A DNA stretch of 64,000 nt, from NCBI GenBank assembly GCA_964428565.1, contig CAYRYV010000013.1:1-64000 (forward strand), written 5' to 3'. How positions within the stretch are numbered: position 1 is the stretch's first letter; every line of letters starts with the position of its first letter. The position numbers and the translations under genes were made by a program. This DNA comes from an uncultured Desulfobacterales bacterium (lineage in GTDB: Bacteria > Desulfobacterota > Desulfobaccia > Desulfobaccales > Desulfobaccaceae). Of the stretch, positions 3,953 to 22,879 are shown one piece after another. The notes under the pieces were generated by a model. It saw nothing but the letters and a program-made list of their open reading frames with translations, was not told the origin of the DNA and made no database searches.

Positions 3953-3958
3953 CCCATC

Positions 3959-6897: not shown

Positions 6898-6965
6898 GCG
6901 TTGCCGCGGCGCACCCCTTGCCGGCGCCTGTAAACGATAATCCTTACAACCTCGAGAGGTGAAAC

Positions 6966-7334: not shown

Positions 7335-7420
7335 CCGCCGGGGACCGCCTCCAGGTCCGCCCTCGGGAAGTGTGCCGTTTCCGTATCCGGCTTTATGCCA
7401 TCAAACTATGAGGAGGAAGA

Positions 7421-7627: not shown

Positions 7628-7632
7628 TTCGG

Positions 7633-8685: not shown

Positions 8686-8709
8686 TCGTCCCGAAAGGAG
8701 GACCATCCT

Positions 8710-9177
8710 ATGAAACGCTGGCTCTGGGCGGGCGTCGCCCTCGTAAGCCTCACTGCCCTGTGTTGGACCGCGACCGGCTCATCCTGGGCTCAGGGCCGGG
8801 GACAGGGCTTCCGGCCGTGCCCCTATACGCCCTATCTCTGCCCGGTGAAAACCGCCTGTCAACCCTTTGAAGAGGACGGCAAAGTGACCCAGGTCCTTAC
8901 GGAAACCCTGGAAAGCACCATGCATCCCGGCATGGCCCTGCTGCTGGACACCAGGACCCGGGGGCCGGTGCACGTCCACCTGGGGCCGGTCTGGTATCTG
9001 GAGCGCCAGGAGTTCGAACTGCGCCCTGGCGATGAAGTGCGGATCACCGGCATGTGCGAACAGGCCAAGGACGGCAAAACGGCGGTGATCGCCTACGAAC
9101 TCACCCGGGGAGAGTATACGCTCCACCTGCGGGATTCCCAGGGCCGCCCCCACTGGGAGGCCTGGCGTCAGCGTTGA
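8710..9177 (+). CDS. Periplasmic hypothetical protein with signal peptide and Cys pairs
   Basis: MKRWLWAGVALVSLTALC signal; CPYTPYLCP...C motif; SD AAGGAGGA. Confidence 0.5.
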   Translation: MKRWLWAGVALVSLTALCWTATGSSWAQGRGQGFRPCPYTPYLCPVKTACQPFEEDGKVTQVLTETLESTMHPGMALLLDTRTRGPVHVHLGPVWYLERQEFELRPGDEVRITGMCEQAKDGKTAVIAYELTRGEYTLHLRDSQGRPHWEAWRQR

Positions 9178-9385: not shown

Positions 9386-12325
9386 TCAAGCCGACCGGAG
9401 GAACTCCTTCACCAGACGATCCCATCCCAGTTCCGGGCACTGCCCGTAAACGTCGTCGATGAGCGAGCCACCGGCCTGGAGGGTGGCGCCCACCGACGGT
9501 TCCAGCATCCCCAACAGCCGTGAGGTTTCCTCTTCGATCCAGGCCGCCGAGCCCTCGCCGGAGATCAGGGTATCCAGGTCCGGCCTGAGGTTGATGGCGG
9601 CGACGAGCATCATCCAACCCTCGCCGTAGGGATCGTCGTGGATCAGCCCGGGTCTCTTGAGGATCTGGGGGTTCACCTCTTCAATGACGCCAGCCACCGG
9701 CGCCAGCACCCCGGCCCGTTCATTCCGGCGCAAAAGCGCCAATGCCGTCTTCTCCCGGCGAATCTCTTCGCCGATGACCGGCATCTGGATTTCTTCGCTG
9801 GAACCCAGGAGCTTTTGGGAAAAGTCATCCATGCCGATGCGCACCCGCCCGCCGGACTCCAGGGCGACCCAGGTATGGCCCAGATGCAGGTAACGGGACG
9901 TCGGCACCTTGATCCCGAAGACTTCTTCGAGTTGCTCCACCAGCTTTTCCAGGCTGACGGCGATTCCCTCGTAGGACTGGACCATGCCGGCGGACTCGGG
10001 GGCCCCCTTCAGCAGCAGGTCCAGGGCGTTTTTCAAGAAATGCCGGGGCAGGAAGGCCGTTCCCGGCCGGACCCGGTTGGTGACCACGGCCGTGGCGGTG
10101 ATCACGCTCTCCGGGGTTGAGGTCTTGAAACGTTCTCCCGACCGGATGCCCAGGTTTTGGGCGTCCTCGGCGCTGATCTCGACGAGCACTTCCGGCTGTT
10201 CCCGGTATTCAAAGGTATAGGTGTAGGCCGGGGGGACGGTCCGATGCTCTTTGAAGGCCGTCCCGGTGGCCAGCCACACCGGATAGGCGTCGTCCGTGGT
10301 CGCGGCCAGGCGGCGCAGGTTGATCATCAGTTCATCCACGGCGTCGATCAGGTCCCCCGGGGCGTTGGCGGCCAGGGAGTGGAAGAGAAGCCGGCTGGGA
10401 GCGATGCCGGCCTCCGCCAAGAGCTCCTGAACCTGCTCCACCCCCCATTGGGCGCACAGATTGCCATGAGTCGATTTACAGTTGTCCTCCGGGCAGGAGA
10501 GCACCAGCACCCCGTCTGCTCCGGCAGTGAAGGCCTCCAGCAAATACGCCGGATCGACCTTGCCGGCGCACGGCACCTTGACGGGGGTAAAGCCCAAGGG
10601 CAGGGAGGCGCTGTGCAGCTTGACGGCGCTCTGATAGGCCTCCCAGGCGGAATTGCGGCACATATACGCCACGATCCGGGGGCCTAATTGGGGATCGAAG
10701 GCCGTCAGCTGCGCCGCCATCTGCTCATCGGTGAAGTTCCGGAGCTGAATGGCGTCGTTGGGACACTGGCTGGCGCAGATGCCGCAGCCCTGGCACGCCA
10801 GTTCATTGATCACAGCCCGATTGTCCCAGGTGATGGCCCCGTGCGGACAGAAGCGGTAGCAGGTGAGGCAGAACACGCACTTGCCCCGGTCCACTACGGC
10901 CCGCCCCTGTAGAGCGACGGCCTGACCCTGACCCAGAAGGACCTGGATGTCATTGATGGCGGCGCTGATGTCGGTGTCGGTCTCCTCCCGGTCCATGATC
11001 CCCCGGCCCGGCCCCAGGACATATACGCCCCGCCGGGGCGTGGCCACCGGCGTATGGTGGACGTTGCCGGACTGGAGAAAGCCCCCGGCCCCCTGGGGCA
11101 GACGCAGCCGCGCCGCCAGCCCGGCGTTTTCTTGGGCCCCCCGGCAGTGTTCGTCATACACCACCAGATTGGCCTTCAGGCCGAGACGCTCCCGGATGCT
11201 GGGTTCCAGAAACTCCACCAGCAGGCCCTCGTCCGCCGCGCTGATGGTCGGGCAGTCATTGAGCTTGATGACCACCAGACCGGCATCCTGGGCGGCCTGG
11301 AGGGCCCGCTGTAGATCCGGCCCCGCCACCTTGGTGCTGCCCACCAGCAGATACACCTTGCTGCCGGCGTCCAACAGGCGGGCCGACGCCTTCAAGACCC
11401 GCTCCAGGGCCAGGGGATGGCTCTCCCCCGCCAGTCCCAGCAGGACGGTGACGGTTTCCGGTTTATCGGTTGCGGATTCTCCGGCCAGCTGCGCTTCCAG
11501 CCGGGTCAGGGAGATCACTCCCGGGTGATCGGCAATGCCGAAACACCGGGGGTCGTCCTGCAGGTGCAGCTCCGGGGCGAGCACAATCGCCCCCACCTGC
11601 TCGGTGAGACATTCCTGCGGGGTATCCAGGCGCACGGTGAAATTTCCGGTGACGCCGCTGACATCCCTAAGCCGGGCGTCGCAGATCACCTTGATCAGGG
11701 GCTGCTCCTGGACGTTCCGGATCAATTGGGCGGTAGCGTCCCCTGCCGCGGCCTCCTCCGCGTATTCCCAGGGGAGCGGCGCAAGTTGGGGGTGGGGGCC
11801 CGCCAGCAAAACCGGATAGCTCAACTCCGCCAGCTCCCGGGCAGTCTGCAGGGCGGCGCCGGAATCGCCCCAGATCAGCACCTGCCGGTTGACGGCAATC
11901 GCTTGCGGGGTGATGGGACTGGCCAGCCCCGCCTGGGAGGCGGCCTGCCGGATCATCTCCAACCCTTTGGCCCTCCGGCCGCTTTTTTCCGGGTGTTCTA
12001 AGGCCGCGGTCAGATCAACCTGCAGGAGATACTCCGGGTTCAACCCCAGCTCTCTCCGCAACAGGCGGGTCACCCCCGCCCCGCGCCGCTCCGGGTCCTG
12101 GGCCACCAGGAGCACCGGATTCAGTTCCTGCTCCCGGCCAAGGAAGGCGCGCACCTCCTCTTCCTGCTCGGCTGCCGGCCGGCCGGTATCCATGGACAGC
12201 ACCCGGCAGTTCGGCAAGCTGGCCACCGCCTGGAAAAAGTCCTGGGCATCGAGTCCGGCGCCGGCAAGCTCCGGGCCGGACATAAGCAAGATATTGAGCG
12301 GTCTTAACGAATCGGCTAGAGTCAT
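9386..12325 (-). CDS. 979-aa multidomain oxidoreductase: degenerate N-terminal region, FAD/NAD(P)-binding HdrA-like region, 2x[4Fe-4S] ferredoxin, MvhD-like domain, molybdopterin-dinucleotide-binding-like domain, C-terminal glycine-cleavage-H-like domain
   Basis: CVFCLTCYRFCP...CQGCGICASQCP (ferredoxin); RIVAYMCRNSAWEAY...KVPCAGK...LSCPEDNCKS (MvhD); GTAFLPRHF (MopB C-terminal-like); PYGEGWMMLV (GcvH-like); SD AGGAGG. Confidence 0.75.
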   Translation of the reverse strand: MTLADSLRPLNILLMSGPELAGAGLDAQDFFQAVASLPNCRVLSMDTGRPAAEQEEEVRAFLGREQELNPVLLVAQDPERRGAGVTRLLRRELGLNPEYLLQVDLTAALEHPEKSGRRAKGLEMIRQAASQAGLASPITPQAIAVNRQVLIWGDSGAALQTARELAELSYPVLLAGPHPQLAPLPWEYAEEAAAGDATAQLIRNVQEQPLIKVICDARLRDVSGVTGNFTVRLDTPQECLTEQVGAIVLAPELHLQDDPRCFGIADHPGVISLTRLEAQLAGESATDKPETVTVLLGLAGESHPLALERVLKASARLLDAGSKVYLLVGSTKVAGPDLQRALQAAQDAGLVVIKLNDCPTISAADEGLLVEFLEPSIRERLGLKANLVVYDEHCRGAQENAGLAARLRLPQGAGGFLQSGNVHHTPVATPRRGVYVLGPGRGIMDREETDTDISAAINDIQVLLGQGQAVALQGRAVVDRGKCVFCLTCYRFCPHGAITWDNRAVINELACQGCGICASQCPNDAIQLRNFTDEQMAAQLTAFDPQLGPRIVAYMCRNSAWEAYQSAVKLHSASLPLGFTPVKVPCAGKVDPAYLLEAFTAGADGVLVLSCPEDNCKSTHGNLCAQWGVEQVQELLAEAGIAPSRLLFHSLAANAPGDLIDAVDELMINLRRLAATTDDAYPVWLATGTAFKEHRTVPPAYTYTFEYREQPEVLVEISAEDAQNLGIRSGERFKTSTPESVITATAVVTNRVRPGTAFLPRHFLKNALDLLLKGAPESAGMVQSYEGIAVSLEKLVEQLEEVFGIKVPTSRYLHLGHTWVALESGGRVRIGMDDFSQKLLGSSEEIQMPVIGEEIRREKTALALLRRNERAGVLAPVAGVIEEVNPQILKRPGLIHDDPYGEGWMMLVAAINLRPDLDTLISGEGSAAWIEEETSRLLGMLEPSVGATLQAGGSLIDDVYGQCPELGWDRLVKEFLRSA

Positions 12326-12534
12326 CCTGTTACCTCCTGCATCAGTAAGGTTAATCCCGGCGAACCGTTTTCATTGACTACCTTACCTCAGCAAATGTTA
12401 TGCCATGCCTCTATTATTCATGATATGAAGAGGTTATCCATAATTGTTCCCCAGCCCCCCCTTCCTTGCGTGCCGGGAAGTTCAACAACTATGAGGCGAT
12501 TTCCATAACATACAAAAATCACTGAATATTATAT

Positions 12535-12551
12535 TGTTTAATAATTAAACA
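12535..12551. promoter_or_regulatory. Perfect 8-1-8 palindrome TGTTTAATAATTAAACA in the 464-bp AT-rich gap inside the hdr cluster
   Basis: Related copies TGTACAATAATTAAACA (22934-22950) and TTGTTTAATATTATTAG (about 23448-23464). Confidence 0.4.
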
Positions 12552-12789
12552 CCACTTTAACACCGGTGTTTCCTGGTTATTCTGTCATCAAGGCGTTAGC
12601 GCTGGCGCCCGTCTTCCCCCTCGGGAAAGGGTTTTTTCCGGCAGTGGCCCGCACCCCGCGGTGGTGTCGCGCGCCGCTCTTCCCGTGAGGCCACCGCTCA
12701 CGCCGCTAACTCCGGCACGCGGGCGTCCGCCCCTCACTTCTTCGCCGATCTCCAGGCCGTCGGCATCCGGGGAAGCAGCTCAGCTCACC

Positions 12790-14052
12790 TCAGGCCATCG
12801 GGGTCCCGCTCCTTCCCTCCAGATACTGGCGCACCTGCTGAACCGAACGGGTCGCCTGGGCGATGCATTCCACAATACTTTGCGGACCGGTGGCGGTCCC
12901 GGCCAGAAAGACCCCGGGAGCTTCGGTAACGCCGCCCGCCGGGCTGTCCTTCAGGAAGCCATCGGGGGTCTTCTCCAAATGCAGCATCTCCGCCAGCTTG
13001 TCATTGTCCAGGCCCGGGGCGATACCCACCGCCAGCACCAATAGATCCACCACCCGGAATAGCCCCTTCCCCGTAGTCTCGTCCAGGAAACGCAGCCGTA
13101 AACTCCCGTCCGCCGTGGCCGTCAGGTCTCCGGGGAGGGCCCGGATCAACTCGATTTCCCGTCTCACCGTGGCCTCGAACTCCTGGGGGTCGGGCCCGAC
13201 ATTTTGCAGGTCCATGTAAAAAGTGGTCACCTTGCACTCCGGCCACCGATGACACACCAGGCGGGCCAGACGCAACCCATAGGCGCAGCACACCCGGGAG
13301 CAATACGTGTGCTCCCGGTCACGGCTGCCCACGCACTGGATGAAGGCCAGATGCCGCACCGGCCGGCCGTCGCTGGGTCTCACCAGAATCCCCCCCTGAC
13401 GGACCATTTCCTCCAATTCCTCGCCCGTGATGATGTTGGGCAACTGGTAATTGGTGTAATCCCCCCGGGCGGGAGGCGGCGCCGGTTGATAACCGGTGGC
13501 GACGATGAGGCTCGGGGTCTCCAGTTCCGTCACGGTCTCGGCCCGGCCCAGGTCGATGGCCTGGGTGGGGCAGATATCCTGGCATCGGCGGCAGGAGCCG
13601 TCCTGAAAATACCGGCAGGCGCCCGGATTCACCGCATAACGGGGATGATTCTCAGCGGAGGCGGCGCTGACGACGCCTCCCGGAGCCGGGCACTCCTCCA
13701 GGCACAGGCCGCAATTCGTGCAGAGGTGCGGATCAATGACCTGGGGCTGGGACTTCAGGGTCAGGTGCAGCAGACCATTCTCGGACCGGCTGGCCATCAA
13801 CTCCGTATGAGGATAAAAGGTGAGGCCCGGCGCCGCCATCAGGTCCCGCAAACCCTGCTCGACCCGGCAGGCCCCGCATTTCTGGCAGGCATCGGTGGCC
13901 TTGCAGCCGAAGCTGGCGGCCCGGCCGCCGAAAAAGGGGCTCTTCTCCACCAGGACCGCCGGGAGTCCCGCCCGGCTTAACTCCAGGGCCGCCGTAATCC
14001 CGGTAATGCCTCCGCCCAGAATCACCACCGGATTGACTTTGTCGTTCTTCAT
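12790..14052 (-). CDS. hdrA: Heterodisulfide reductase subunit A-like flavoprotein (short HdrA)
   Basis: GGGITGITAALEL FAD motif, multiple CxxCxxC ferredoxin motifs, FIQCVGSRD...CSRVCC HdrA signature. Confidence 0.85.
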   Translation of the reverse strand: MKNDKVNPVVILGGGITGITAALELSRAGLPAVLVEKSPFFGGRAASFGCKATDACQKCGACRVEQGLRDLMAAPGLTFYPHTELMASRSENGLLHLTLKSQPQVIDPHLCTNCGLCLEECPAPGGVVSAASAENHPRYAVNPGACRYFQDGSCRRCQDICPTQAIDLGRAETVTELETPSLIVATGYQPAPPPARGDYTNYQLPNIITGEELEEMVRQGGILVRPSDGRPVRHLAFIQCVGSRDREHTYCSRVCCAYGLRLARLVCHRWPECKVTTFYMDLQNVGPDPQEFEATVRREIELIRALPGDLTATADGSLRLRFLDETTGKGLFRVVDLLVLAVGIAPGLDNDKLAEMLHLEKTPDGFLKDSPAGGVTEAPGVFLAGTATGPQSIVECIAQATRSVQQVRQYLEGRSGTPMA

Positions 14053-14070: not shown

Positions 14071-14955
14071 TCAGACACCGGCCTTCTCCAGGACAAGAGC
14101 CATCAGGTCGCCCCGCCCCCGGGCCTTGACATAAACGCCGTCCGCAAGTTTTTGCCCTTTGATCTCCTTGAGCAGACGTCCGGCAAGAGCGGCGCCTTTC
14201 TTCAAGACTTCCTCGGGATCACTGTCGGCCAGTTCCTTCACCATCTCCGGCGGCAGTGAATACACCTTCCGGTGACTACCTTGACTGGCCTCCTCCACTT
14301 CCGCAGCCTTGGGGACCTTGACGCAGGCCAACAGCTTGACGCCCTGGAGATCCACCAACTTCCTGAATTTTTCGAGCTTCTGGAGGTCAAAGACAGGTGC
14401 GGTGACGAAAAATTCGGCGCCCGCCTCCAGCTTTTTCCTGACCTTCAGGAGCTGGGGAGCCACCGGCTCGGCCTCCGGGATCAGGACCGCGCCCAGGCAG
14501 AACTGAGGATTGCCTTTCAGGGAAAGACCGGCGCTGTCATGACCCTCCATCAGCCCCCGGGCGATTTGCAGGAGCTGCACCGAGTCGGCGTCGTAGACCG
14601 GCTTGGCGTCGGGATGATCCCCGAGCGTGACGTAATCGCCGCTCAGGGTGAGGATATTTTCCAGACCCAGGGCGCCGGCCCCCAGGAGATCGCTCTCCAG
14701 GGCCAGACGATTGCGATCCCGGCATGTCATGAGGAGCATGGGTTCTTTACCCGCCTGTTTCACCAGCGCCGCGGCCGCCAGGGCCGAGAGCTTCATCTTG
14801 GCGTGCTCCATGTCCGGGATGCCAAAGGCGGTCACCTTCCCGTCGAGGGATTTCACGGGAGCCAGCATCCCCTCCAGGTCGATGCCCTTGGGGGTTTTTA
14901 CTTCCATGACGATGGGGAACCGGCCGCCCTCCAAAGCTTCCTTAAGTTTACTCAT
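14071..14955 (-). CDS. metF: Methylenetetrahydrofolate reductase catalytic subunit (MetF-like)
   Basis: TIM-barrel MTHFR motifs (FPIVMEVKTPKG..., FFVTAPVFD); start taken at MSKLKEA with SD GGAGAT 11 nt upstream; sits next to metV/hdr/mvhD as in acetogen MetFV-Hdr-Mvh complexes. Confidence 0.8.
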   Translation of the reverse strand: MSKLKEALEGGRFPIVMEVKTPKGIDLEGMLAPVKSLDGKVTAFGIPDMEHAKMKLSALAAAALVKQAGKEPMLLMTCRDRNRLALESDLLGAGALGLENILTLSGDYVTLGDHPDAKPVYDADSVQLLQIARGLMEGHDSAGLSLKGNPQFCLGAVLIPEAEPVAPQLLKVRKKLEAGAEFFVTAPVFDLQKLEKFRKLVDLQGVKLLACVKVPKAAEVEEASQGSHRKVYSLPPEMVKELADSDPEEVLKKGAALAGRLLKEIKGQKLADGVYVKARGRGDLMALVLEKAGV

Positions 14956-15628
14956 GGACGACATATCTCCTCTTGTAAGCCGGGTGGATGACGGTACCCG
15001 GGGTAGTGCCCCGCCCGTGGGGATGGAGCGGTAGGATCGCATCGATCTGCTCCAGCCTTCCCTGCTGTTCCAGCCTGGCATAGATTTCACACCAGGCGCA
15101 CTCCCGGTCCGGATTCACCTCGCATTTTCCCTGGACGTTGCCGCCGCAGGGGCCGTTGAGCAAGCCCTTGGGACACATGGTTTGCGGGCAAATCCCCCCG
15201 GTAACCCCCAGGTAACACTGATGGCAGGCTCGGCAGCGCTCGGTATACCACCCCGCCTCTTCGTTGACCCCGATGAAGGTGGTGTTGAGGGCCGGGAAGA
15301 CCGGTTTCATGCCGGACATTGCCGCCAGGAACTGCACCCCGGCGCCGCAGGCCGTCGAAATGACTACGTCGTAGTCGGCCACCGCGTCGCTCAGGGGCTG
15401 AATAAACTCCCGGTCGCACTGGCGCTCCACCGTCATCTCGCCGATCTTCGGGTGCTTGCCTTCCTGCCCCCAGGCGAGCTTCAGTTGCGAAGCCAACAGC
15501 CCCACCTCTTTTTCCCCGCCTACCAGGCAAACCGCCACACAGGTGCCGCACCCGGCGATGAGAATCTTCTCATAGGGCGCCACCGCCGCCTTGATCTCCG
15601 CAAAAGGCTTTCGTTCCGCGATAATCAT
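14948..15628 (-). CDS. metV: MTHFR small subunit MetV-like (MTHFR C-terminal zinc-ribbon-like domain) protein
   Basis: Cys-rich (GCGTCVAVCL..., CRACHQC...CPQTMCPKGLLNGPCGG) like MetV; ATATGA overlap with the upstream mvhD stop. Confidence 0.7.
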   Translation of the reverse strand: MIIAERKPFAEIKAAVAPYEKILIAGCGTCVAVCLVGGEKEVGLLASQLKLAWGQEGKHPKIGEMTVERQCDREFIQPLSDAVADYDVVISTACGAGVQFLAAMSGMKPVFPALNTTFIGVNEEAGWYTERCRACHQCYLGVTGGICPQTMCPKGLLNGPCGGNVQGKCEVNPDRECAWCEIYARLEQQGRLEQIDAILPLHPHGRGTTPGTVIHPAYKRRYVVHE

Positions 15629-16089
15629 ATTTGCACCGCCAGTTCTTGTTCTTCCGGGACCATGGCCTCCGGTGTCCAGTTTGGGTTCAGGGGACTGGGC
15701 CCCAACCGTTTGACTCTTTCCACCATTTCATTCACTGCTATCACCCACTTGGGGGCGTCTGAAGCAGCCACCTCATACATGATCAGGCGTTCTGAGCCCA
15801 GACCGCATTCATCCAGCAAGTTCTGGCCATATTCCACCCGTTCGCGGGCCCGCAGATTCCCTTCCAGGAAATGGCAGGTGCCCGCCTCGCAGCCACTCAC
15901 CATAACGCCGTCGGCCCCGGCCTCGAAACCCCTCAGAATATGCAGGATGTCAATCCGGCCGGTGCACAGGTACTTGACGATCCGCACGTTGGGCGGATAC
16001 TGCATCCGGGCCGACCCCGCCATATCCGCGGCCGTGTAGGTGCAGTAGGTGCACACCAGGGCCAAAATCTTAGGAGTAAATTCTGTCAC
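15625..16089 (-). CDS. mvhD: Methyl-viologen-reducing hydrogenase delta subunit family protein (MvhD), Cys-containing copy
   Basis: ILALVCTYCTYTAADMAGSARMQYP...YLCTGRID...GCEAGTCHF MvhD hallmarks; start GTG 16089 chosen by alignment to the paralogue (the track's ATG 16110 lacks an SD). Confidence 0.8.
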   Translation of the reverse strand: MTEFTPKILALVCTYCTYTAADMAGSARMQYPPNVRIVKYLCTGRIDILHILRGFEAGADGVMVSGCEAGTCHFLEGNLRARERVEYGQNLLDECGLGSERLIMYEVAASDAPKWVIAVNEMVERVKRLGPSPLNPNWTPEAMVPEEQELAVQI

Positions 16090-16195
16090 TTTTTCTCGAC
16101 TCCCACACATGGGGTGACCGTCGGCCAGGGCTCGCAGAGGGCGCTAAATATGACCATATATTGCACGTCCAGGTCAGGCCGTTTCGACATGGCCT

Positions 16196-16657
16196 TCAGG
16201 TTTGCACCGCCGGTTCTTGTTCGCCCGGAACCACAGCCCCCGGTATCCATTGCGGACTCAGAGGACTGGGGCCCAGAGCCTTGACTTTTTCCGTCATTTC
16301 CTTAACCACGGCAACCCATTTGGGGGCATCGGAGGCGGCGATCTCATAGAATGCCAGACGCTCGGCCCCCAGGCCGCATTCTTCCAGTAAGTGCCGTGCA
16401 TATTCCACACGTTCGCGAGCTCTGAGATTTCCTTCCAGGAAATGGCAGGTGCCGGCCTCTCAGCCACCCACAAATATGGCGTCGGCCCCGGCCTCAAACC
16501 CTTTTAAAATATGCAGGATGTCAATCCGGCCGGTGCACAGGTACTTGACGATCCGTACATTGGTCGGATACTGCATCCGGGCCGACCCCGCCATATCCGC
16601 GGCCGTGTAGGTGCAGTAGGTGCACACCAGGGCCAGTATCTTCGGGGAAAATTCCAT
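16196..16657 (-). CDS. mvhD: MvhD paralogue with in-frame TGA (16460-16462) at the position of the conserved Cys (GC-EAGTCHF); proposed selenocysteine-containing MvhD, 153 aa read-through
   Basis: Track ORFs 16460..16657 and 16196..16408 are in the same frame and ~80% identical to the downstream mvhD on both sides of the TGA; the TGA replaces a TGC codon; SD GAGGAGA before ATG 16657. Confidence 0.6.
16427..16443 (-). other. Candidate SECIS-type hairpin (AUUUCCU-GGA-AGGAAAU) starting 16 nt 3' of the in-frame UGA
   Basis: 7-bp perfect stem seen directly in the sequence; the same region in the Cys paralogue has one wobble pair, so this is not discriminating on its own. Confidence 0.25.
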
Positions 16658-16666
16658 CTCGTCTCC

Positions 16667-19600
16667 TCAACTTCCGGCGCTGACGCCGGCCACCGGCCAG
16701 GATTGGCCGATGGCGCCGATTTTGGCGATGAATTGCTCATCCAGGTTGTGGTTCACGACAATGGCCTTCCGGGGACAGGCGCTGGCGCAGTTGCCGCAGC
16801 CCTGGCAGGCGGCGGGGTCAATGAACACCACGCCTTCGCTTTCATCCATCTTGGGCACCCCATAGGGACAGGTGCGGGCGCAGGTAAGACAGGCGACACA
16901 TTGTAACGGATTCACCTGCGCCACGGATCCGGCCACATACATCTCCTCCTGGGATAGCACCCCCAACGCCCGGCCGGCCGCACCCTTGGCCTGGGCCAGA
17001 CTCTCTTCCAAGAACTTGGGACTGTGCGCCAAGCCGCACAGGAAGACGCCGCTGGAAGCGAAATCCAGGGGCCGCAATTTCAAGTGGGCCTCCATGAAGA
17101 AACCGTCGGCATCAAAGGGCAGCTTGAAGATCTTGGCAATTTCCCGGCTCATGGGGTGAGGCCGGATGGCTGCCGACAGGACCAGGTAATCAGCCGTGAG
17201 CGCCAGCTCCGCCTGCAGCATTTGATCGAAGACCTTTATCTGCAGCCCCCGGTCCGTGGCCTCCACCTCCGGCTTCCGCTCCGGATCAAAGCGGACAAAC
17301 TGGACTCCCAAATCCCGGGCCTTCTTGTAGTACAACTCCTTGAGGCCGTAGGTCCGGATATCCCGGTAGAGGATGAAGACCTGGGCGGCGGGATTGCTCT
17401 CCTTGATGGTTATGGCGTTCTTGATGGCCTCGCCGCAACAGGTGCGGCTGCAGTACTGGTGTTCCGGCTCCCGGGAGCCGACGCATTGAATCATCACTAC
17501 CTTGGGCACGGACCCTAATCCCTGGGGGCGGTCCGCCAGCATGGACTCCATTTCCGCTTGGGTCAGGACCCGGGAATCCTGGCCATAGAGATACTCCTCC
17601 GGCTGATATTCCACCCCGCCGGTGGCGATCACCGCCGCGCCGTAATCCACCTCCCAGCGGTCATCGCCCGCTGCCAGGGTGCTGTGGAATTTGCCGATAC
17701 TGCCGGACACATCCACGACCCTGGTATTGACCCGCCAGTCGATGCGGGGATGGTTTTCCACCCGGCGCACCAGCTCCTCGAGATAGGGTTGAATTTCATG
17801 GCCTTCCAGGGTGCGTTTCATCCGCCTGGCCAGGCTGCCGCCCAGCCGGTCGCCCATCTCCGTCAGATAAACCTGGTAACCGCTGTCGGCAATAGTCAGC
17901 GCGGCCGTCAAACCGGCCAGGCCGCCACCCACCACCAGGGCCTGCTGGCTCACCGGGAAGAGCAGATCGTCCAGAGGCCGTAAAATCGCCGCCCGGGCCA
18001 CCGACATCTGCACCAGTTCCTTGGCCTTGTCCGTGGCCAGCTCCGGCGTCGCCTGGTGGACCCAGGAGTCCTGATCCCGGATGTTGGCCATCTCAAACAG
18101 GTATTTGTTCAAACCGGCCTTCCGGAGGTTCTCCTGGAACAGGGATTCGTGGGTGCGGGGGCTGCAGGAGGCCACCACAATCCGGTTCAGGTTTTCGCGT
18201 TCAATCACCTCGCGCATGTTGTCCAGCGAATCGGTGGCGCAGGTGAAGGTATAGTGGTCGGCGTACACCACGTGGGGGAGAGTCCGGGCGTAATCGGTCA
18301 CCGCCGCCACATCCACCACCGCGGCGATGTTGATGCCGCAATGGCAGATGAAGACGCCGATCCGGGGCTCTGCGCCGCTGACCTCCTGCTCCGGGGGATA
18401 TTCCTCCTTGGACAGCAGGGTGCCCCGGGCTTCGGCGAGCAGGGCCGCGGCGGCTCCGGCCGCCCCGGAAGCCTGGCCCACGGTCTCCGGGATGTCTTTG
18501 GGAGACTGGAAGACGCCGCACGTAAAGGCCCCCGGCCGCGAGGTGGAAACCTGTTCCAGGGGCGGACTCACGACAAAGCCCCAGCGGTCCGTGTCGATGG
18601 CGCAATGGGCTGCCAGTTCCTTGGTGGCCGGATGGGGGACCAGACCCACGGAGAGCACTACCAGATCAAAAACCTCGGTTTGTATGTGGCCGGATTCATC
18701 GGCGTAACTGAGCTCCAGGTTCTGCGTACTGGGATCCTGGGCCACCCGGGAAACCATGGCCCGGATATAGCGTATCCGGTGGTCGGTCTTGGCCCGTTCG
18801 CAGTAACGGTCGAAGCCCTTCCCCTGGGCCCGTAGGTCTATATAAAAGATGGTGGATTCGATATTGTGGTCATGCTCCTGAGCGATAATAGCCTGCTTGG
18901 TGGCATACATGCAACAGACGTAGGAACAGTATTCCCGGCCGCAGGAGGCGTCCCGGGAGCCCACGCACTGGATCCAGGCCACCCTCCGGGGCGGTTTGCC
19001 GTCGCCGGGGCGCAACACATGGCCGTCATAGGGACCGGTGGCCGACAGGAAACGTTCGAACTGCAGCGAGGTCACGACGTTGGGATAGCGTCCCCACCCA
19101 TATTCGGGTTTGAGGCCGGCATCGAAGGGCCGGAAACCCGGGGCCAGGATCATCGCCCCCACCTCGAGTTGCCGGGTCCGGGGCTGCATGCTGTGGTCGA
19201 TGGCCCCGGCCTGGCAGGCAATCACACACTGCATACATTCTGAGCACCCGCCGCAATTGAGACAGCGTTCCGCTTCGGCCACGGCTTGGGCTTCGGGGTA
19301 GCCTCGGTTGATTTCCTGAAAGCCTTTGACCCATTCGGCATGAGGCAACTCCGGCATTACCGCCCGGCGCCGGGGAGTAAGTTTGTCCGGCACGGGCAGC
19401 CAATTGCCTTGTTCCGGGGGAACGGGCCGCAGGGGCAGTTCCCGCCCTTCCCGCAGATCCTGACCGTTGAGGTAGCGGTCGATGGACAGGGCGGCTTCCC
19501 GGCCGGCGGCCACCGCGGCGATGGCGATATAGGGACCGGAAACCACGTCGCCGCCGGCAAAGACGCCCTCCCGGCCGCTGGCCAGGGTCACCGGGTCCGT

Positions 19601-21211
19601 TTCGATGAGACCCCGCGGGGTAAGGTTGATGCCGTCCGCCTCGGTGAGAAAAGCGAGGTTGGTCTTCTGGCCGATGGCCATAATCACCACATCGGCATTC
19701 CGGGTGGTGGTTTTGTCTTCCCGATAGGTGGGAGCGAAACGCCCCTGTTCGTCAAAGACCCGTTCCACGGCCTTCAGTTCGAGGCCGCTGACCCGGCTTT
19801 CCCGGCCCAGAATCTGCTTGACGCCCCACCGATGGATAATCTCGACCCCTTCCTGTTCCGCCTCGGCCACTTCCCAAGGGGAAGCCGGCATCTCTTCCCG
19901 GGTTTCGAGGGCGATCAGAGTGACCTTGGCCCCTTGGCGCCGGGCCGTCCGGGCAACGTCCATAGCCACGTTGCCGCCGCCGATAACCGCCACCTGCTTG
20001 CCCTGAAAATCGAACTGCTGACCGGAAGCGGAATCCTTCAGGTACTCGACGCCCCAAAGGACTCCCTGAGCATCGGCCCCGGGCACCGGCAGACGGATGG
20101 AATCCTGGGCCCCCACGCCGATAAAGACCGCCCGGAAGCCCTTCTTGGTGAGCAGATCGTCTATGGTGTTGCCGGGGCCGCCGATGGGCGAGTTATACCG
20201 GATGTCCACTCCCAGGCGCTGGATGTAGTCAACTTCCCGTTGGAGGACTTCCCGGGGCAGGCGATACTCGGGGATGCCGTAGCGCAACCAACCGCCGGCT
20301 TCGGCGGCAGCCTCGAAAATTACCGCTTTATAGCCTTGGCGAGCCAGATGATAGGCGCAGCTTAAACCGGAAGGACCGGCCCCGATAATAGCCACGGACT
20401 CCTCCCGCGGCTGGATTTCAGGGATCGGCAACGCCTGCCAGTCCACGGCGTCGGCCACAAACCGCTTCAGGTTGCAGATGGCCACGGGCTCGTCCACTTC
20501 CTGTCGCCGGCAGTCGGACTCGCAGGGATGGGGACAAATGCGGCCGATGACGCCGGGCAGCGGCAGCCGGTCCATGATGAGGGACAGGGCCTCGGGAAAT
20601 TTCCCCGCCTTGATGAGCTGCACGTAGCCCTGCACGCTCAGATTCGCCGGACAGGCCCGCACGCAGGGAGCCCGGTCCAGTTTCTTGATGGCATAGTAGG
20701 CCGGAATCGCCTGGGGGAAGTGCCGGTAAGCGGCATGGCGCACGCCCAGGCCCTCATCAAAGGTCGAGGGCAGTTCCACCGGGCAGGCCTCCGAACAAGC
20801 CCCGCAGGCGTTGCATTTGGCCATGTCAATATAGCGGGGCTCCTGGCGAAGGGTGATGGTGAAATGGCCCGCCTCGCCCTCCACGCCGGCAATCTCAGAC
20901 TGGGTGACGATCTCAATGTCCGGGTGCCGGGCCACCTCAATAAGTTTAGGGGAGATCAAACAGGTGGAGCAGTCGTTGGTGGGGAAGGTCTTGTCCAACT
21001 GGGCCATGACCCCGCCGATGGAAATGTCTTTCTCCACCAGATAGACCTTAAAACCCGCATTTGCTGCGTCCAGGGCGGCCTGCATACCGGCGATACCGCC
21101 CCCCACCACCATAATGGCGCCGATTTTGGTCTTTGCAGTAGTCATAGATTTTTTTCGTCTGGAATTGGCGTGGGTATCCACTAGTGTAAGTTTTGCCCGG
21201 CGTTTCATCAC
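16667..21211 (-). CDS. Giant HdrA-like flavoprotein fusion (HdrL type): HdrA FAD/FeS domains, a GltD/NfnB-like NAD(P)H-binding domain, and a second HdrA-like module with C-terminal 2x[4Fe-4S]
   Basis: 1514 aa; repeated GxGxxG FAD motifs (VVGGGIAGM, IIGAGPSGL, VIGGGNVAM, VVGGGLAGL), many CxxCxxCxxxCP clusters, HdrA signature CVGSRD...CSxxCC twice; AAGGA SD; TGATGA overlap with the hdrB stop. Confidence 0.85.
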   Translation of the reverse strand: MMKRRAKLTLVDTHANSRRKKSMTTAKTKIGAIMVVGGGIAGMQAALDAANAGFKVYLVEKDISIGGVMAQLDKTFPTNDCSTCLISPKLIEVARHPDIEIVTQSEIAGVEGEAGHFTITLRQEPRYIDMAKCNACGACSEACPVELPSTFDEGLGVRHAAYRHFPQAIPAYYAIKKLDRAPCVRACPANLSVQGYVQLIKAGKFPEALSLIMDRLPLPGVIGRICPHPCESDCRRQEVDEPVAICNLKRFVADAVDWQALPIPEIQPREESVAIIGAGPSGLSCAYHLARQGYKAVIFEAAAEAGGWLRYGIPEYRLPREVLQREVDYIQRLGVDIRYNSPIGGPGNTIDDLLTKKGFRAVFIGVGAQDSIRLPVPGADAQGVLWGVEYLKDSASGQQFDFQGKQVAVIGGGNVAMDVARTARRQGAKVTLIALETREEMPASPWEVAEAEQEGVEIIHRWGVKQILGRESRVSGLELKAVERVFDEQGRFAPTYREDKTTTRNADVVIMAIGQKTNLAFLTEADGINLTPRGLIETDPVTLASGREGVFAGGDVVSGPYIAIAAVAAGREAALSIDRYLNGQDLREGRELPLRPVPPEQGNWLPVPDKLTPRRRAVMPELPHAEWVKGFQEINRGYPEAQAVAEAERCLNCGGCSECMQCVIACQAGAIDHSMQPRTRQLEVGAMILAPGFRPFDAGLKPEYGWGRYPNVVTSLQFERFLSATGPYDGHVLRPGDGKPPRRVAWIQCVGSRDASCGREYCSYVCCMYATKQAIIAQEHDHNIESTIFYIDLRAQGKGFDRYCERAKTDHRIRYIRAMVSRVAQDPSTQNLELSYADESGHIQTEVFDLVVLSVGLVPHPATKELAAHCAIDTDRWGFVVSPPLEQVSTSRPGAFTCGVFQSPKDIPETVGQASGAAGAAAALLAEARGTLLSKEEYPPEQEVSGAEPRIGVFICHCGINIAAVVDVAAVTDYARTLPHVVYADHYTFTCATDSLDNMREVIERENLNRIVVASCSPRTHESLFQENLRKAGLNKYLFEMANIRDQDSWVHQATPELATDKAKELVQMSVARAAILRPLDDLLFPVSQQALVVGGGLAGLTAALTIADSGYQVYLTEMGDRLGGSLARRMKRTLEGHEIQPYLEELVRRVENHPRIDWRVNTRVVDVSGSIGKFHSTLAAGDDRWEVDYGAAVIATGGVEYQPEEYLYGQDSRVLTQAEMESMLADRPQGLGSVPKVVMIQCVGSREPEHQYCSRTCCGEAIKNAITIKESNPAAQVFILYRDIRTYGLKELYYKKARDLGVQFVRFDPERKPEVEATDRGLQIKVFDQMLQAELALTADYLVLSAAIRPHPMSREIAKIFKLPFDADGFFMEAHLKLRPLDFASSGVFLCGLAHSPKFLEESLAQAKGAAGRALGVLSQEEMYVAGSVAQVNPLQCVACLTCARTCPYGVPKMDESEGVVFIDPAACQGCGNCASACPRKAIVVNHNLDEQFIAKIGAIGQSWPVAGVSAGS

Positions 21212-22053
21212 AACAATCCTTTATTCCGCAGTAAAGGCCGGGGGTCCACCAAATGGCGGGCCAGCCAGGCGGCGACCTCCGGGTGCCCCAGGGCCAGTCC
21301 GATCAGTTCGGTGAAATAGAACACCGGCAAGTAATAGTTCTTCCCTGCCTTCTTTGATATGCGGCCCTGGGAGAGGTCCAGATTGGCCTGGCACATCTGG
21401 CAGGCCACCACGAAACACTCGGCCCCGGCCGCCAGAGCCCGGTCATAGAGGCGCCCCACCAGAGTATCAATGAGATCCGGCCGGGCCATCGCCAGGCCGG
21501 CCCCGCAGCAGTCGGTCTTATAGGACCAGTCGAGAGGGTCGGCCTGCAGGACCTGAAGCAGGCGCTCCATATCCTTGGGGTTTTCGCAATCCACCTTATC
21601 CGTGATCTCCGGAGGCCGGGATGCCAGGCAACCGTAGTAGCCCACCGCCTTCAGACCGGTGAGGGGCCGTACCGTCTTCTGTTTCAGGATGGACAGAAAT
21701 GACTCCTGGGAGAGAAATTCCAATAGATCCCAGATCTTTGTCCCATTTTTCCGACCAACCGGAGTCTCTTGCCGGCGGTTCTGCTCCTTTTCGGCGGCCT
21801 TGAGGCGGTTGAAGCACAAGGCGCAGGGGACCACCAAATCCATACCGGTTTGCCGGGCCAACGCCAGGTTGCGAGCCGGCAGTTCCAAAGAGAGTCGATG
21901 GTTGATACTGTGAGCCGCGCTGGCGCCGCAGCAGTTCCAATCCTCCAGTTCCACCAACTGCAGGTCCACGAGGGGAGCGACAGCGGCAATGGAGGCAGCA
22001 TAATCCGCCGCAGTGCCTTCCAAAGAACAGCCGGGGTAATAAGATACCTTCAT
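21208..22053 (-). CDS. hdrB: Heterodisulfide reductase subunit B (two CCG domains)
   Basis: YYPGCS...CCGxxx and YYGC...CCGAG motifs; start at MKVSYYPGC (ATG 22053) after AAGG. Confidence 0.8.
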   Translation of the reverse strand: MKVSYYPGCSLEGTAADYAASIAAVAPLVDLQLVELEDWNCCGASAAHSINHRLSLELPARNLALARQTGMDLVVPCALCFNRLKAAEKEQNRRQETPVGRKNGTKIWDLLEFLSQESFLSILKQKTVRPLTGLKAVGYYGCLASRPPEITDKVDCENPKDMERLLQVLQADPLDWSYKTDCCGAGLAMARPDLIDTLVGRLYDRALAAGAECFVVACQMCQANLDLSQGRISKKAGKNYYLPVFYFTELIGLALGHPEVAAWLARHLVDPRPLLRNKGLL

Positions 22054-22060
22054 AAATGCC

Positions 22061-22642
22061 TTAACCCCCTGCACGTTTAAAGATTTCGTTGATTTCATCC
22101 CGCCCCTTGAGGGCTGGCGGGCCAATCGGGCGTAAGCGGCCGCGTTTGAAGAGGGCCCAACCCAACTTGGCATTTTCCCAAAGCTCCTGAAGTTGCGGTC
22201 GTCGCCGAAGTTGATACAGGGTGAAGCGGCGCATCAACGCCACCTCCGGCAAGCGGCCGCCAGCCCGACGGAGGCTGTCCAGGAAGAAGCGCTGGAAGGC
22301 CGCCACCTCCGGCTGGTCGACGGCTTTGCCCTGCCGAATCGCCTCCTCTTTGAGCCAGTCCATGACCCCGGCGATGTCAATGCCGTTGGGGCAGCGAGTG
22401 GTGCAGGTGACGCAGGAGGCGCAGACCCAGATGGTCCGGCAGCCCAGAAGCATCTCCGTCTGACCCAGGAGAGCCAGGCGTATGACCCGGTCCGGGAGCA
22501 GATCCATGGCGAAGGTCAGGGGACAACCGGCAGAACATTTCTTACATTGAAAGCAGGCGGACAATTGAATAGCGGCCTCTTGAGAGAGACGTTCCTGCAG
22601 TGAAAATGCCGGGGCCAGCGGTTGGTTGATATTGAGTTCCAT
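22061..22642 (-). CDS. hdrC: Heterodisulfide reductase subunit C (2x[4Fe-4S])
   Basis: CFQCKKCSAGCP and CASCVTCTTRCP ferredoxin motifs; SD AGGAG 9 nt before ATG 22642. Confidence 0.8.
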   Translation of the reverse strand: MELNINQPLAPAFSLQERLSQEAAIQLSACFQCKKCSAGCPLTFAMDLLPDRVIRLALLGQTEMLLGCRTIWVCASCVTCTTRCPNGIDIAGVMDWLKEEAIRQGKAVDQPEVAAFQRFFLDSLRRAGGRLPEVALMRRFTLYQLRRRPQLQELWENAKLGWALFKRGRLRPIGPPALKGRDEINEIFKRAGG

Positions 22643-22879
22643 GAAGACAGGCTCCTGATTATCGGTTGGCATCTATGCCCGGGTCAGACCCCATACATAA
22701 CACAAAACAGATTTCAGGCTGCCCGGGGCTTACAGGGCCTTAAAAATTCCTCCGGTCCACTTGGACCCGGACAAAATATATTGTTAATGCAATTTCGTTG
22801 CCATAATTTAAATAGCCGTGATATCGGCATCTTCATTATCAACAAGATGTCTGCCGGGACCGGAATTTGTCGAAATAAC

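What the first reader, a model, noticed from the sequence alone, without database searches (positions are those of the whole stretch)
9386..12325. 979-aa fusion protein joining HdrA-like flavoprotein, ferredoxin, MvhD, molybdopterin-dinucleotide-binding and glycine-cleavage-H-like domains
Single-polypeptide fusions of an MvhD domain with an HdrA-like module are known. The additional C-terminal MopB-type dinucleotide-binding beta-barrel (GTAFLPRHF) and the GcvH-like lipoyl-type domain (PYGEGWMMLV, with no obvious lipoyl-Lys context) are unusual. This protein ends the MetFV-Hdr operon and may link the bifurcating complex to a formate/molybdoenzyme partner or act as a scaffold.
Basis: partly seen in the sequence, partly recalled or inferred. 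Interest (0 to 1): 0.55.

Follow-up and report, generated by a model that had tools for sequence, protein, structure and literature searches.

The report
Five-domain electron-transfer fusion protein
This is a real, conserved 979-residue protein from a sulfate-reducer-like bacterium: a worn-down copy of a known redox enzyme subunit that probably keeps only its iron-sulfur wiring, plus two borrowed cofactor-less end domains that most likely serve as a docking piece in the enzyme complex handling the methyl step of acetate metabolism.

Summary
A single 979-aa ORF lies at 9386-12325 on the minus strand. All five domain calls pass Pfam's curated cut-offs and are confirmed by predicted structure.

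The interpretation needs three corrections.
- The HdrA-like half is probably not a flavoprotein. GxGxxG is replaced by a family-invariant WGDS, the Cys ligands of two HdrA clusters are gone, and the inserted ferredoxin domain is absent. The redox centres left are 2x[4Fe-4S] plus the MvhD 4-Cys site.
- The GcvH-like domain has Arg-Asn at the hairpin tip where the lipoyl-Lys should be. It belongs to a rare "extended GcvH-like" family with a conserved ~54-aa tail. That family recurs beside or fused to Hdr and Fe-S modules.
- No molybdoenzyme catalytic subunit lies in the 64 kb, and the MopB barrel is the least conserved domain.

The gene pairs with an upstream QmoA-like flavoprotein. In this clade a 465-nt spacer carrying its own sigma-54-type promoter separates the two genes.

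Best reading: a QmoB/HdrA2-type Fe-S wire and scaffold subunit of a MetFV-HdrL/BC-MvhD complex, with a pseudo-substrate-like docking module. It is a new variant of a known kind, of moderate interest. It bears on the unknown partner of MetFV-Hdr complexes and on the unexplained gcvH genes in Wood-Ljungdahl clusters.

The parts
9386..12325 (-). Whole 979-aa ORF (stop codon at 9386-8): pseudo-HdrA / QmoB-like - 2x[4Fe-4S] - MvhD - MopB domain IV - extended GcvH-like fusion
11921..12325 (-). Residues 1-135: HdrA N-terminal-type domain that lacks the Cys ligands of the HdrA cluster
   Evidence: The profile aligns residues 9-130 to HdrA residues 5-~130. AF2/Foldseek supports the fold. No conserved Cys.
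10916..11920 (-). Residues 136-470: thioredoxin-reductase-like (HdrA flavin-domain) fold with a degenerate dinucleotide site (V-W-G-D-S-x-A), no inserted ferredoxin domain and no CVGSRD/CSRVCC cluster motif
10691..10915 (-). Residues 471-545: ferredoxin domain with eight invariant Cys (483, 486, 489, 493, 511, 514, 517, 521), predicted to bind 2x[4Fe-4S]
10301..10690 (-). Residues 546-675: MvhD/FlpD domain. Invariant Cys at 556, 586, 611 and 616; the second Cys of CxxC is Ser
9941..10300 (-). Residues 676-795: orphan MopB domain IV (Molydop_binding beta-barrel), closest to the C-termini of cytoplasmic FdhA/FdhF; least conserved domain
9551..9940 (-). Residues 796-925: short linker plus GcvH-fold domain without a lipoyl-Lys (hairpin tip R867-N868)
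9389..9550 (-). Residues 926-979: conserved helical tail (MLEPSVGATLQxGGxLIDDVYGxxPELGWxRLVKEFL), the signature of the extended GcvH-like family
12390..12405 (-). Sigma-54-type -24/-12 promoter TGGCATAACATTTGCT, 65 nt upstream of the ATG, inside the 465-nt spacer 12326-12789
   Evidence: Only exact match in the 64 kb (0.07 expected). Conserved in the 80%-identical locus L093.
12790..14052 (-). QmoA-like / core-HdrA flavoprotein (420 aa) with an intact GGGxxG, an inserted ferredoxin and the CVGSRD...CSRVCC motif; predicted heterodimer partner
   Evidence: Adjacency is conserved in relatives.
14071..22672 (-). Upstream cluster: metF, metV, mvhD (Cys form), mvhD (Sec form), hdrL (1514 aa), hdrB, hdrC
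   Evidence: The same gene order is found in L001, L004 and L093.
22788..22803 (-). Second sigma-54-type site, TGGCAACGAAATTGCA, upstream of hdrC. It shares an upstream CTGTTTAATTATT..ACAA block with the promoter region of the fusion gene

Best explanation
The gene encodes a QmoB/HdrA2-type subunit that has lost its own flavin chemistry. It serves as an iron-sulfur wire and scaffold in a MetFV-HdrL/HdrBC-MvhD methylene-tetrahydrofolate reductase complex of a Desulfobaccales-type bacterium.

Shown:
- The protein has the HdrA fold (N-terminal domain plus thioredoxin-reductase-like domain).
- It lacks GxGxxG (replaced by WGDS), the GG motif, the Cys ligands of the N-domain cluster and of the flavin-proximal cluster, and the inserted ferredoxin domain.
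- It retains eight invariant Cys for two [4Fe-4S] clusters and four invariant Cys in the MvhD domain.
- The upstream gene encodes the complementary piece: a 420-aa core HdrA/QmoA with an intact FAD site, an inserted ferredoxin and the cluster motif. Gene adjacency or overlap between the two is conserved across Desulfobacterota.

Inferred:
- The two proteins form a heterodimer equivalent to the HdrA homodimer, with one active flavin. The fusion protein carries electrons through [2Fe-2S] and 2x[4Fe-4S].
- The C-terminal addition was acquired stepwise. Relatives of ~675 aa, ~790 aa and ~975 aa all exist.
- The MopB domain IV barrel binds no cofactor, because domains I-III are absent. It is weakly constrained and probably acts as a spacer.
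- The GcvH-like domain and its tail are as conserved as the redox domains but cannot be lipoylated. They probably act as a built-in docking or pseudo-substrate module. That module would hold the Fe-S wire against a partner, most likely the HdrBC/CCG module or the flavoprotein, in the way lipoylated GcvH/LbpA proteins are thought to dock on Hdr-like enzymes.
- In this clade the gene has its own sigma-54-type promoter, so its dosage could be regulated separately from the rest of the operon.
For: - Domain calls.
- HdrA homology end to end, and the missing motifs.
- The QmoA-like partner aligns to HdrA residues 143-554 with intact motifs.
- Conserved qmoA-like/qmoB-like adjacency next to metVF in Desulfobaccales, Desulfosarcina and others.
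- Three architectures (675, 790 and 975 aa).
- Mean pairwise identity per domain among the 29 full-length members: Fer4 0.80, MvhD 0.74, tail 0.72, GcvH-like 0.66, N-terminal domain 0.60, TrxR-like 0.58, Mop 0.46.
- No Lys at the hairpin tip in the window protein, and none conserved there across the family.
- The extended GcvH-like module recurs next to or fused with Hdr and Fe-S modules: stand-alone 204-209-aa and 293-304-aa genes after hdrB; a GCV_H+HdrC fusion; a ferredoxin+GCV_H+tail protein; and stand-alone copies directly after the fusion gene in L092.
- The tail is found only attached to GCV_H domains, in 61 representative clusters out of 1.84 billion.
- Canonical Lys-bearing gcvH genes sit inside metFV-hdr or qmoAB-hdrCB clusters in two Bacillota MAGs and one Thermodesulfobacteriota MAG.
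- Sigma-54 promoter.
Against: - Loss of FAD binding is inferred from motifs only. WGDS is itself invariant, so the site may bind something else.
- Which MvhD Cys residues ligate the cluster was not verified.
- Short-form relatives (~675 aa) apparently work without the C-terminal module, so it is accessory.
- The link between Hdr clusters and canonical GcvH rests on only three loci.
- No solved structure or biochemical study exists for any member.
Confidence: 0.55

Rival explanations
1. It is a functional flavin-containing HdrA/QmoB that itself performs flavin-based electron bifurcation.
For: The HdrA fold is confidently predicted and is the top PDB match. JGI pipelines name some members QmoB. 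The WGDS region is conserved rather than drifting.
Against: GxGxxG, the GG motif and the flavin-proximal Cys cluster motif are all absent. Distant relatives (P0056, P0057, P0059) and the adjacent QmoA-like protein keep them. Pfam and NCBIfam find no FAD/NAD domain in residues 1-470.
Confidence: 0.1
2. The MopB domain IV acts in trans as the cap (FwdD/FmdD-like) of a separately encoded molybdo/tungstopterin subunit. This would couple formate or formyl-group oxidation to the Hdr complex.
For: The domain is closest to the FdhF/FdhA C-termini (7qv7_S E 2.3e-10, 9t1s_L E 3.8e-9). Stand-alone FmdD chains match the model (8rja_J, TM 0.58). One short-form locus (L004) has a domain-IV-less MopB-like gene and an amidohydrolase immediately downstream. 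P0068 in locus L094 couples an FdhA-like fragment to the GcvH-like module.
Against: No MopB catalytic gene is present in the 64-kb window or within +/-10 kb of the long forms examined. The FwdB-like gene accompanies a short form that lacks the barrel, the opposite of what this idea predicts. The barrel is the least conserved domain.
Confidence: 0.1
3. The GcvH-like domain is a true carrier domain. It would bear a covalently attached dithiol or other cofactor at a non-canonical site that HdrB reduces or oxidises, as an intramolecular heterodisulfide substitute.
For: Lys-bearing gcvH genes lie within metFV-hdr clusters in other phyla. Stand-alone extended relatives conserve a Lys two residues after the canonical position. 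By analogy, the sulfur-oxidiser sHdr system uses lipoate-binding LbpA (my own knowledge, not tested here).
Against: The window protein has no Lys anywhere in the hairpin (R867-N868). The fused family has no conserved Lys or Cys in the domain or the tail. No lipoate ligase or synthase gene was seen among the window ORFs scanned.
Confidence: 0.1
4. The C-terminal 300 residues are a functionless evolutionary relic of a gene-fusion accident.
For: Short forms without this region exist and are more widespread. The Mop barrel evolves fast.
Against: The GcvH-like domain and tail are as conserved as MvhD (0.66-0.72 mean identity, 42 invariant columns). The same module is maintained as separate genes and in at least three other fusion contexts.
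Confidence: 0.08
5. The long ORF is an assembly or frameshift artefact that joins separate genes.
For: One error-prone assembly (L092) shows the gene broken into four pieces.
Against: The identical ORF appears in an independent assembly. There are 29 full-length homologues from different projects.
Confidence: 0.01

Closest known systems
HdrA2 of Methanosarcina acetivorans and other HdrA-MvhD fusions (Yan et al. 2017, PMC5296606; fusions noted in PMC2702500)
   Same: The domain order is the same: HdrA N-domain, thioredoxin-reductase-like domain, C-terminal 2x[4Fe-4S] ferredoxin, then a fused MvhD. NCBIfam HdrA2 is the best family hit (residues 341-675, E 6.6e-59).
   Different: The score is far below the family cut-off (199.8 against 1100 bits). 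The FAD motif, the N-domain cluster, the flavin-proximal cluster and the inserted ferredoxin are all missing. There is an extra MopB domain IV and an extended GcvH-like module.
QmoB of the QmoABC complex of sulfate reducers (Pires 2003; Ramos 2012, PMC3333476)
   Same: It is an HdrA-like protein with a C-terminal MvhD-like domain, encoded directly after a ~410-420-aa QmoA-like flavoprotein. JGI annotates some members as QmoB.
   Different: No qmoC or aprAB gene is nearby; the neighbours are metVF, mvhD, hdrL and hdrBC. QmoB is a flavoprotein (my own knowledge) whereas this protein lacks the motif. QmoB has no Mop or GcvH additions.
MetFV-HdrABC-MvhD, the type IV methylene-THF reductase of Moorella thermoacetica (Mock 2014, as summarised in PMC8760232 and PMC6085437)
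   Same: The same gene set (hdrC, hdrB, an HdrA-type protein, mvhD, metV, metF) lies in one cluster. The second electron acceptor or donor is unknown.
   Different: Here HdrA is the 1514-aa HdrL type. There are two mvhD genes (Sec and Cys forms). A QmoA-like/pseudo-HdrA pair with the GcvH-like module is appended.
Glycine-cleavage H protein (GcvH), and the lipoate-binding LbpA of sHdr systems
   Same: The fold is the same (TM 0.88-0.91, rmsd 1.4-2.0 A). The HxW, DxxQ and PYGxGW motifs are shared. It is genomically associated with Hdr-like enzymes, as LbpA is (my own knowledge).
   Different: The lipoyl-Lys is replaced by Asn, with Arg before it. It scores below the NCBIfam GcvH cut-offs. It carries a ~54-aa conserved tail found only in this rare family. 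It is fused rather than free.
MopB domain IV of cytoplasmic formate dehydrogenases, and the stand-alone FwdD/FmdD subunits
   Same: Molydop_binding beta-barrel fold and sequence signature.
   Different: Domains I-III, the pterin ligands and the Cys/Sec metal ligand are absent. No partner MopB gene is nearby.

Membership tests
HdrA (heterodisulfide reductase flavoprotein subunit) | Overall fold: N-terminal domain, thioredoxin-reductase-like domain and C-terminal ferredoxin domain | tested here: met
   Profile against PDB HdrA chains, E 1e-59. Foldseek E 9e-30, TM up to 0.72.
HdrA (heterodisulfide reductase flavoprotein subunit) | FAD-binding GxGxxG plus the downstream GG motif | tested here: not met
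   HdrA 'IGaGiAG' aligns to 'WGDSxAa', which is invariant in 28 of 29 members. There is no GG motif. There is no Pfam FAD/NAD hit.
HdrA (heterodisulfide reductase flavoprotein subunit) | Cys ligands of the N-domain and flavin-proximal [4Fe-4S] clusters, and the inserted ferredoxin domain | tested here: not met
   No aligned Cys. 'CVGSRD..CSRVCC' aligns to 'LGLAGESHPLALER'. The inserted domain is skipped in the alignment.
HdrA (heterodisulfide reductase flavoprotein subunit) | C-terminal 2x[4Fe-4S] ferredoxin domain | tested here: met
   Eight invariant Cys in two CxxCxxCxxxCP motifs.
HdrA2 (NCBIfam NF040770) | Whole-protein score at or above the curated cut-off (1100 bits) | tested here: not met
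   199.8 bits, covering only residues 341-675.
MvhD / FlpD | Pfam PF02662 above the gathering score, and conserved Cys for a [2Fe-2S] cluster | tested here: met
   91.9 bits against a 22.3 cut-off. Cys 556, 586, 611 and 616 are invariant; the fifth MvhD Cys is Ser. Which Cys residues are the ligands was not verified.
QmoB (QmoABC complex) | Encoded after qmoA and together with qmoC, next to aprBA | tested here: not met
   A QmoA-like gene is present upstream. No qmoC or aprAB gene was found in the cluster or among the window ORFs examined.
MopB molybdo/tungsto-pterin oxidoreductase | Domain IV (Molydop_binding) | tested here: met
   45.6 bits against a 26.8 cut-off. Foldseek matches to Fdh/Nap C-termini.
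MopB molybdo/tungsto-pterin oxidoreductase | Catalytic domains I-III (PF00384, PF04879) with the metal-ligating Cys/Sec | tested here: not met
   Absent from the protein and from the whole window.
Glycine-cleavage H protein | GCV_H fold and Pfam signature | tested here: met
   62.7 bits against a 22.2 cut-off. TM 0.88 to 1onl_A.
Glycine-cleavage H protein | Lipoyl-Lys at the tip of the beta-hairpin (ExxK motif) | tested here: not met
   The Lys of 1onl and of E. coli GcvH aligns to N868. The model's hairpin turn is R867-N868. The position is variable across the family.
Glycine-cleavage H protein | NCBIfam equivalog cut-off (TIGR00527, 115.85 bits) | tested here: not met
   56.7 bits.
Extended (tail-bearing) GcvH-like family, defined here | GCV_H domain followed by the conserved tail GxTLxxGGxxxDDVYGxxPxLGWxxLVxEF | tested here: met
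   Alignments A2 and A4. A tail-only search finds only GCV_H-containing proteins.
MetFV-Hdr-MvhD (type IV MTHFR) complex subunit | Physical membership of the complex | not testable with these tools
   Only conserved gene order is available.

The most novel reading that the evidence does not exclude
GcvH-type modules are genuine, so far unrecognised components of bacterial MetFV-Hdr and related Hdr-like complexes. Three arrangements point the same way.
- In some Bacillota a lipoylated GcvH is encoded between metF and hdrCB. It could be the long-sought thiol/disulfide co-substrate of HdrBC, which would make it the "unknown second acceptor" of type IV methylene-THF reductase.
- In Desulfobaccales a Lys-less, tail-bearing derivative has been hard-wired onto Fe-S subunits. 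These are the QmoB-like protein, HdrC, a ferredoxin, and a Cys-rich N-terminal domain.
- There it would act as a permanent docking or gating element.

The fusion in this window would then be Rosetta-stone evidence for that partnership.
Probability: 0.2. Interest if true: 0.8.

Novelty: new variant of a known kind. Interest (0 to 1): 0.5.

Why it matters
Two questions remain open in the papers read here.
- The second electron acceptor or donor of MetFV-HdrABC-MvhD methylene-THF reductases is unknown (PMC8760232, PMC5039349).
- It is unclear why gcvH genes sit in Wood-Ljungdahl gene clusters (PMC5039349: its role "remains unclear").

A covalent fusion of a GcvH-fold module to the MvhD/Fe-S arm of such a cluster bears on both. 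So do the stand-alone, HdrC-fused and ferredoxin-fused copies of the same module, and the Lys-bearing gcvH genes inside metFV-hdr operons of other phyla. Together they give a concrete, testable candidate for the missing partner interface.

The protein is also a clear example of a pseudo-enzyme subunit. It is a flavin-less HdrA paired with an intact QmoA-like protomer, which is relevant to how asymmetric bifurcating complexes are built.

If the C-terminal module turns out to be a passive spacer, the finding is just one more of the many Hdr-type domain fusions in Desulfobacterota.

Tried and rejected
- **Frameshift or assembly artefact.** Rejected.
- **Upstream extension or selenocysteine read-through into the 465-nt spacer.** Rejected. 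The spacer has stops in all frames around an AT-rich core, the ATG has a GGAGG site, and the spacer is conserved in L093.
- **Structured RNA in the spacer.** Rfam at gathering threshold found only two tRNAs elsewhere in the window.
- **Sigma-70 promoter and terminator scan.** Only weak consensus matches, and no minus-strand terminator between the qmoA-like gene and the target.
- **FwdB-like and amidohydrolase genes downstream of the short form in L004, as a lead to a Fwd/Fhc-type partner.** They have no relatives in the window or in any other locus, so this is treated as coincidental context.
- **Search for a MopB catalytic gene, a sigma-54 activator and other GcvH-like genes in the window.** None found, apart from receiver-domain hits.
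- **Homologue search with the Mop region alone.** Only two hits, both fragments of the same family.
- **Literature searches for GcvH together with Hdr, MvhD or MetF.** None describe this architecture.
- **Foldseek against AFDB50.** The library was unavailable.
- **P0210, a hit in the tail-only search.** It is a coiled-coil false positive.


Full report
**1. Observation**

The window holds one uninterrupted ORF of 979 codons at 9386-12325, on the minus strand. It starts at an ATG preceded by GGAGG. Pfam places four domains above their curated cut-offs:
- two Fer4 motifs, residues 477-529
- FlpD/MvhD, residues 551-673 (E 3.8e-26)
- Molydop_binding, residues 701-765 (45.6 bits against a 26.8 cut-off)
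- GCV_H, residues 816-931 (62.7 bits against 22.2)

NCBIfam's best hit is HdrA2, but it covers only residues 341-675 and scores far below the cut-off.

The identical protein is encoded on an independent Logan assembly. Twenty-nine homologues of 962-980 aa, at 55-80% identity and full coverage, come from unrelated datasets. The fusion is therefore real and not a frameshift artefact.

Where sources name these proteins, they call them "hydrogenase iron-sulfur subunit [Desulfobaccales bacterium]", "[Desulfobacca sp.]" or "QmoB".

**2. The N-terminal half is a degenerate HdrA**

A family profile aligns end to end with methanogen HdrA chains (9sfi_A E 1e-59, also 5odc_A). An AF2 model of residues 1-475 (pLDDT 86) has HdrA as its best PDB match (E 9e-30, TM up to 0.72). 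The sHdrA chain 6tjr matches at TM 0.80.

The alignment shows that the cofactor sites are gone:
- HdrA's IGaGiAG aligns to V-W-G-D-S-x-A. This is invariant in 28 of 29 full-length members, whereas distant relatives (P0056, P0057, P0059) keep GxGxxG.
- The downstream GG motif is missing.
- CVGSRD...CSRVCC aligns to LGLAGESHPLALER.
- The N-domain has no Cys.
- The inserted ferredoxin domain is skipped.

What remains invariant is eight Cys of two CxxCxxCxxxCP motifs and four Cys of the MvhD domain. Loss of FAD binding is inferred from these motifs and has not been shown directly.

**3. Partner and context**

The gene immediately upstream (12790-14052) encodes a 420-aa protein that aligns to HdrA residues 143-554. 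It has an intact GGGxxG, the inserted ferredoxin and the cluster motif. It therefore has exactly the parts that the fusion protein lacks.

Further upstream on the same strand lie metF, metV, two mvhD genes, a 1514-aa HdrL-type protein, hdrB and hdrC.

The order hdrC-hdrB-hdrL-mvhD-metV-metF-qmoA-like-target recurs in relatives. There the last two genes overlap by 4 nt. A metVF-qmoA-like-qmoB-like arrangement is widespread in Desulfobacterota, for example in Desulfosarcina variabilis.

I infer a QmoA-like/pseudo-HdrA heterodimer that mimics the HdrA homodimer but has a single active flavin.

**4. The C-terminal addition**

Relatives come in three lengths:
- ~675 aa, ending after MvhD
- ~790 aa, adding the Mop barrel
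- ~975 aa, adding the Mop barrel and the GcvH-like module

This suggests stepwise accretion.

An AF2 model of residues 676-979 has pLDDT 83.7 and pTM 0.73. It matches GcvH structures at TM 0.88-0.91 and rmsd 1.4-2.0 A. It also matches domain IV of Fdh/Nap enzymes and stand-alone FmdD chains.

By sequence, the barrel is closest to the C-termini of cytoplasmic FdhF/FdhA. Domains I-III are absent from the protein, and no MopB catalytic gene occurs in the 64 kb. The barrel therefore cannot hold a pterin cofactor on its own. It is also the least conserved domain, at 0.46 mean pairwise identity against 0.80 for Fer4.

**5. The GcvH-like module**

The lipoyl-Lys of T. thermophilus and E. coli GcvH aligns to Asn868. 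The modelled hairpin turn is R867-N868. Across the fused family this position and its neighbours vary. The domain is therefore not a lipoyl carrier.

The domain and the following ~54-residue helical tail are nevertheless as conserved as the redox domains, at 0.66 and 0.72 mean identity.

The module defines a rare family:
- 384 proteins match it in the 5.8-billion-sequence collection.
- The tail alone finds only 61 representative clusters among 1.84 billion. All real hits carry a GCV_H domain.

Members occur in several contexts:
- as stand-alone 204-209-aa and 293-304-aa proteins encoded right after hdrB of another Hdr cluster
- fused to HdrC
- fused to a 2x[4Fe-4S] ferredoxin (P0213)
- behind a Cys-rich N-terminal region in the 293-304-aa type
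- directly downstream of the fusion gene in L092

The stand-alone forms have Gly at the canonical Lys position and a conserved Lys two residues later.

Separately, canonical Lys-bearing gcvH genes (ESGKW) lie between metF and hdrCB in two Bacillota MAGs, and after qmoAB-hdrCB in one Thermodesulfobacteriota MAG. This supports a recurrent functional link between GcvH-fold proteins and Hdr-type complexes. It rests on few loci.

**6. Regulation**

In this window, and in the 80%-identical locus L093, a ~450-465-nt spacer separates the qmoA-like gene from the target. The spacer contains TGGCATAACATTTGCT at 12390-12405, which matches the sigma-54 -24/-12 consensus. It is the only exact match in 64 kb (0.07 expected) and is conserved in L093.

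A second such site lies upstream of hdrC at 22788-22803. Both are preceded about 150 nt upstream by a shared CTGTTTAATTATT..ACAA block. Matches to the same pattern lie upstream of the clusters in several relatives.

The gene is therefore the last one of the cluster but probably has its own promoter.

**7. Mechanism and rivals**

Best reading (confidence about 0.55): this is an Fe-S-only wire and scaffold subunit of a MetFV-HdrL/BC-MvhD-QmoA-like complex. The Mop barrel acts as a spacer, and the Lys-less GcvH-like module with its tail acts as a built-in docking or pseudo-substrate element.

Each rival is at or below about 0.1:
- a functional flavoprotein
- a trans-acting cap for a pterin enzyme
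- a true cofactor carrier
- a functionless relic
- an artefact

**8. Comparison and novelty**

HdrA-MvhD fusions (HdrA2, QmoB) and MetFV-Hdr clusters are known (PMC5296606, PMC2702500, PMC8760232, PMC6085437). None of my searches of the held literature found a description of the Mop-IV plus extended GcvH-like addition, or of the tail-bearing GcvH-like family.

It is a new variant of a known kind.

It bears on two acknowledged open points: the unknown second substrate of type IV methylene-THF reductase (PMC8760232), and the unexplained gcvH genes in Wood-Ljungdahl clusters (PMC5039349).

Interest is moderate, at 0.5.

Noticed in passing
window 16196-16657 (-): An unannotated second mvhD gene of 153 codons has an in-frame TGA at 16460-16462. 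That codon aligns with the Cys of 'GCEAGTCH' in the adjacent Cys-type mvhD (15625-16110). This looks like a tandem selenocysteine/cysteine MvhD pair. L093 shows the same split gene calls.
   Followed up: partly
window 22788-22803 (-) and 12390-12405 (-): Two sigma-54-type promoters, one before hdrC and one before the fusion gene, share an upstream CTGTTTAATTATT..ACAA block. A receiver-only response regulator is encoded just upstream of hdrC (~22989-23351). No sigma-54 activator AAA+ gene is present in the window.
   Followed up: partly
L008/L009 5079-8882; L010 6439-9643: A second Hdr-type cluster in Desulfobaccales-like contigs has the order hdrL-mvhD-frhB-like-hdrA-hdrC-hdrB. It ends with two extended GcvH-like genes (209 aa and 293 aa). 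In L008/L009 HdrC itself carries an N-terminal GcvH-like module. An M54 peptidase and a sigma-54 two-component system lie next to the cluster.
   Followed up: partly
L059 8669-15307; L077 8171-14854; L069 5291-10198: Two Bacillota MAGs have the order hdrA~mvhD-metV-metF-gcvH-hdrC-hdrB, with a canonical Lys-bearing GcvH (ESGKW). One Thermodesulfobacteriota MAG has qmoA-qmoB-hdrC-hdrB-gcvH.
   Followed up: partly
L004 12254-14899: Directly after a short-form (677-aa) homologue lie a 424-aa MopB-like protein without domain IV (FwdB-like) and a 456-aa amidohydrolase (FwdA-like). Nothing similar was found in the other loci.
   Followed up: partly
L094 1403-4844 (P0068): A 263-aa protein joins an FdhA-like segment (GVKYHRLEDGGLQWP...HPGT) directly to the extended GcvH-like module. 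It lies next to a split NAD-type FdhA gene that appears to lack domain IV. This hints that the Mop-plus-GcvH-like pairing has an Fdh-related origin.
   Followed up: no
window 16667-21211 (-): A 1514-aa HdrL-type protein (HdrA-like, GltD/NfnB-like NAD(P)H module, then HdrA-like) replaces a simple HdrA in this MetFV-Hdr cluster.
   Followed up: no
window 1107-9177: Downstream neighbours are unrelated to the cluster: a MamS/MamX-like 155-aa protein, a 350-aa secreted protein, a DUF2325 protein, and a feoAB-fur iron-uptake cluster (gene calls in L011).
   Followed up: no
window 25857-26012 (-): Two adjacent tRNA genes are the only Rfam matches at gathering threshold in the window.
   Followed up: no
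proteins P0075, P0091, P0118, P0177 (293-309 aa): The longer stand-alone extended GcvH-like proteins carry an N-terminal Cys-rich region (CIWM..C..FDC..C, then C..C..C) with no Pfam match. It may be a metal or Fe-S site.
   Followed up: no
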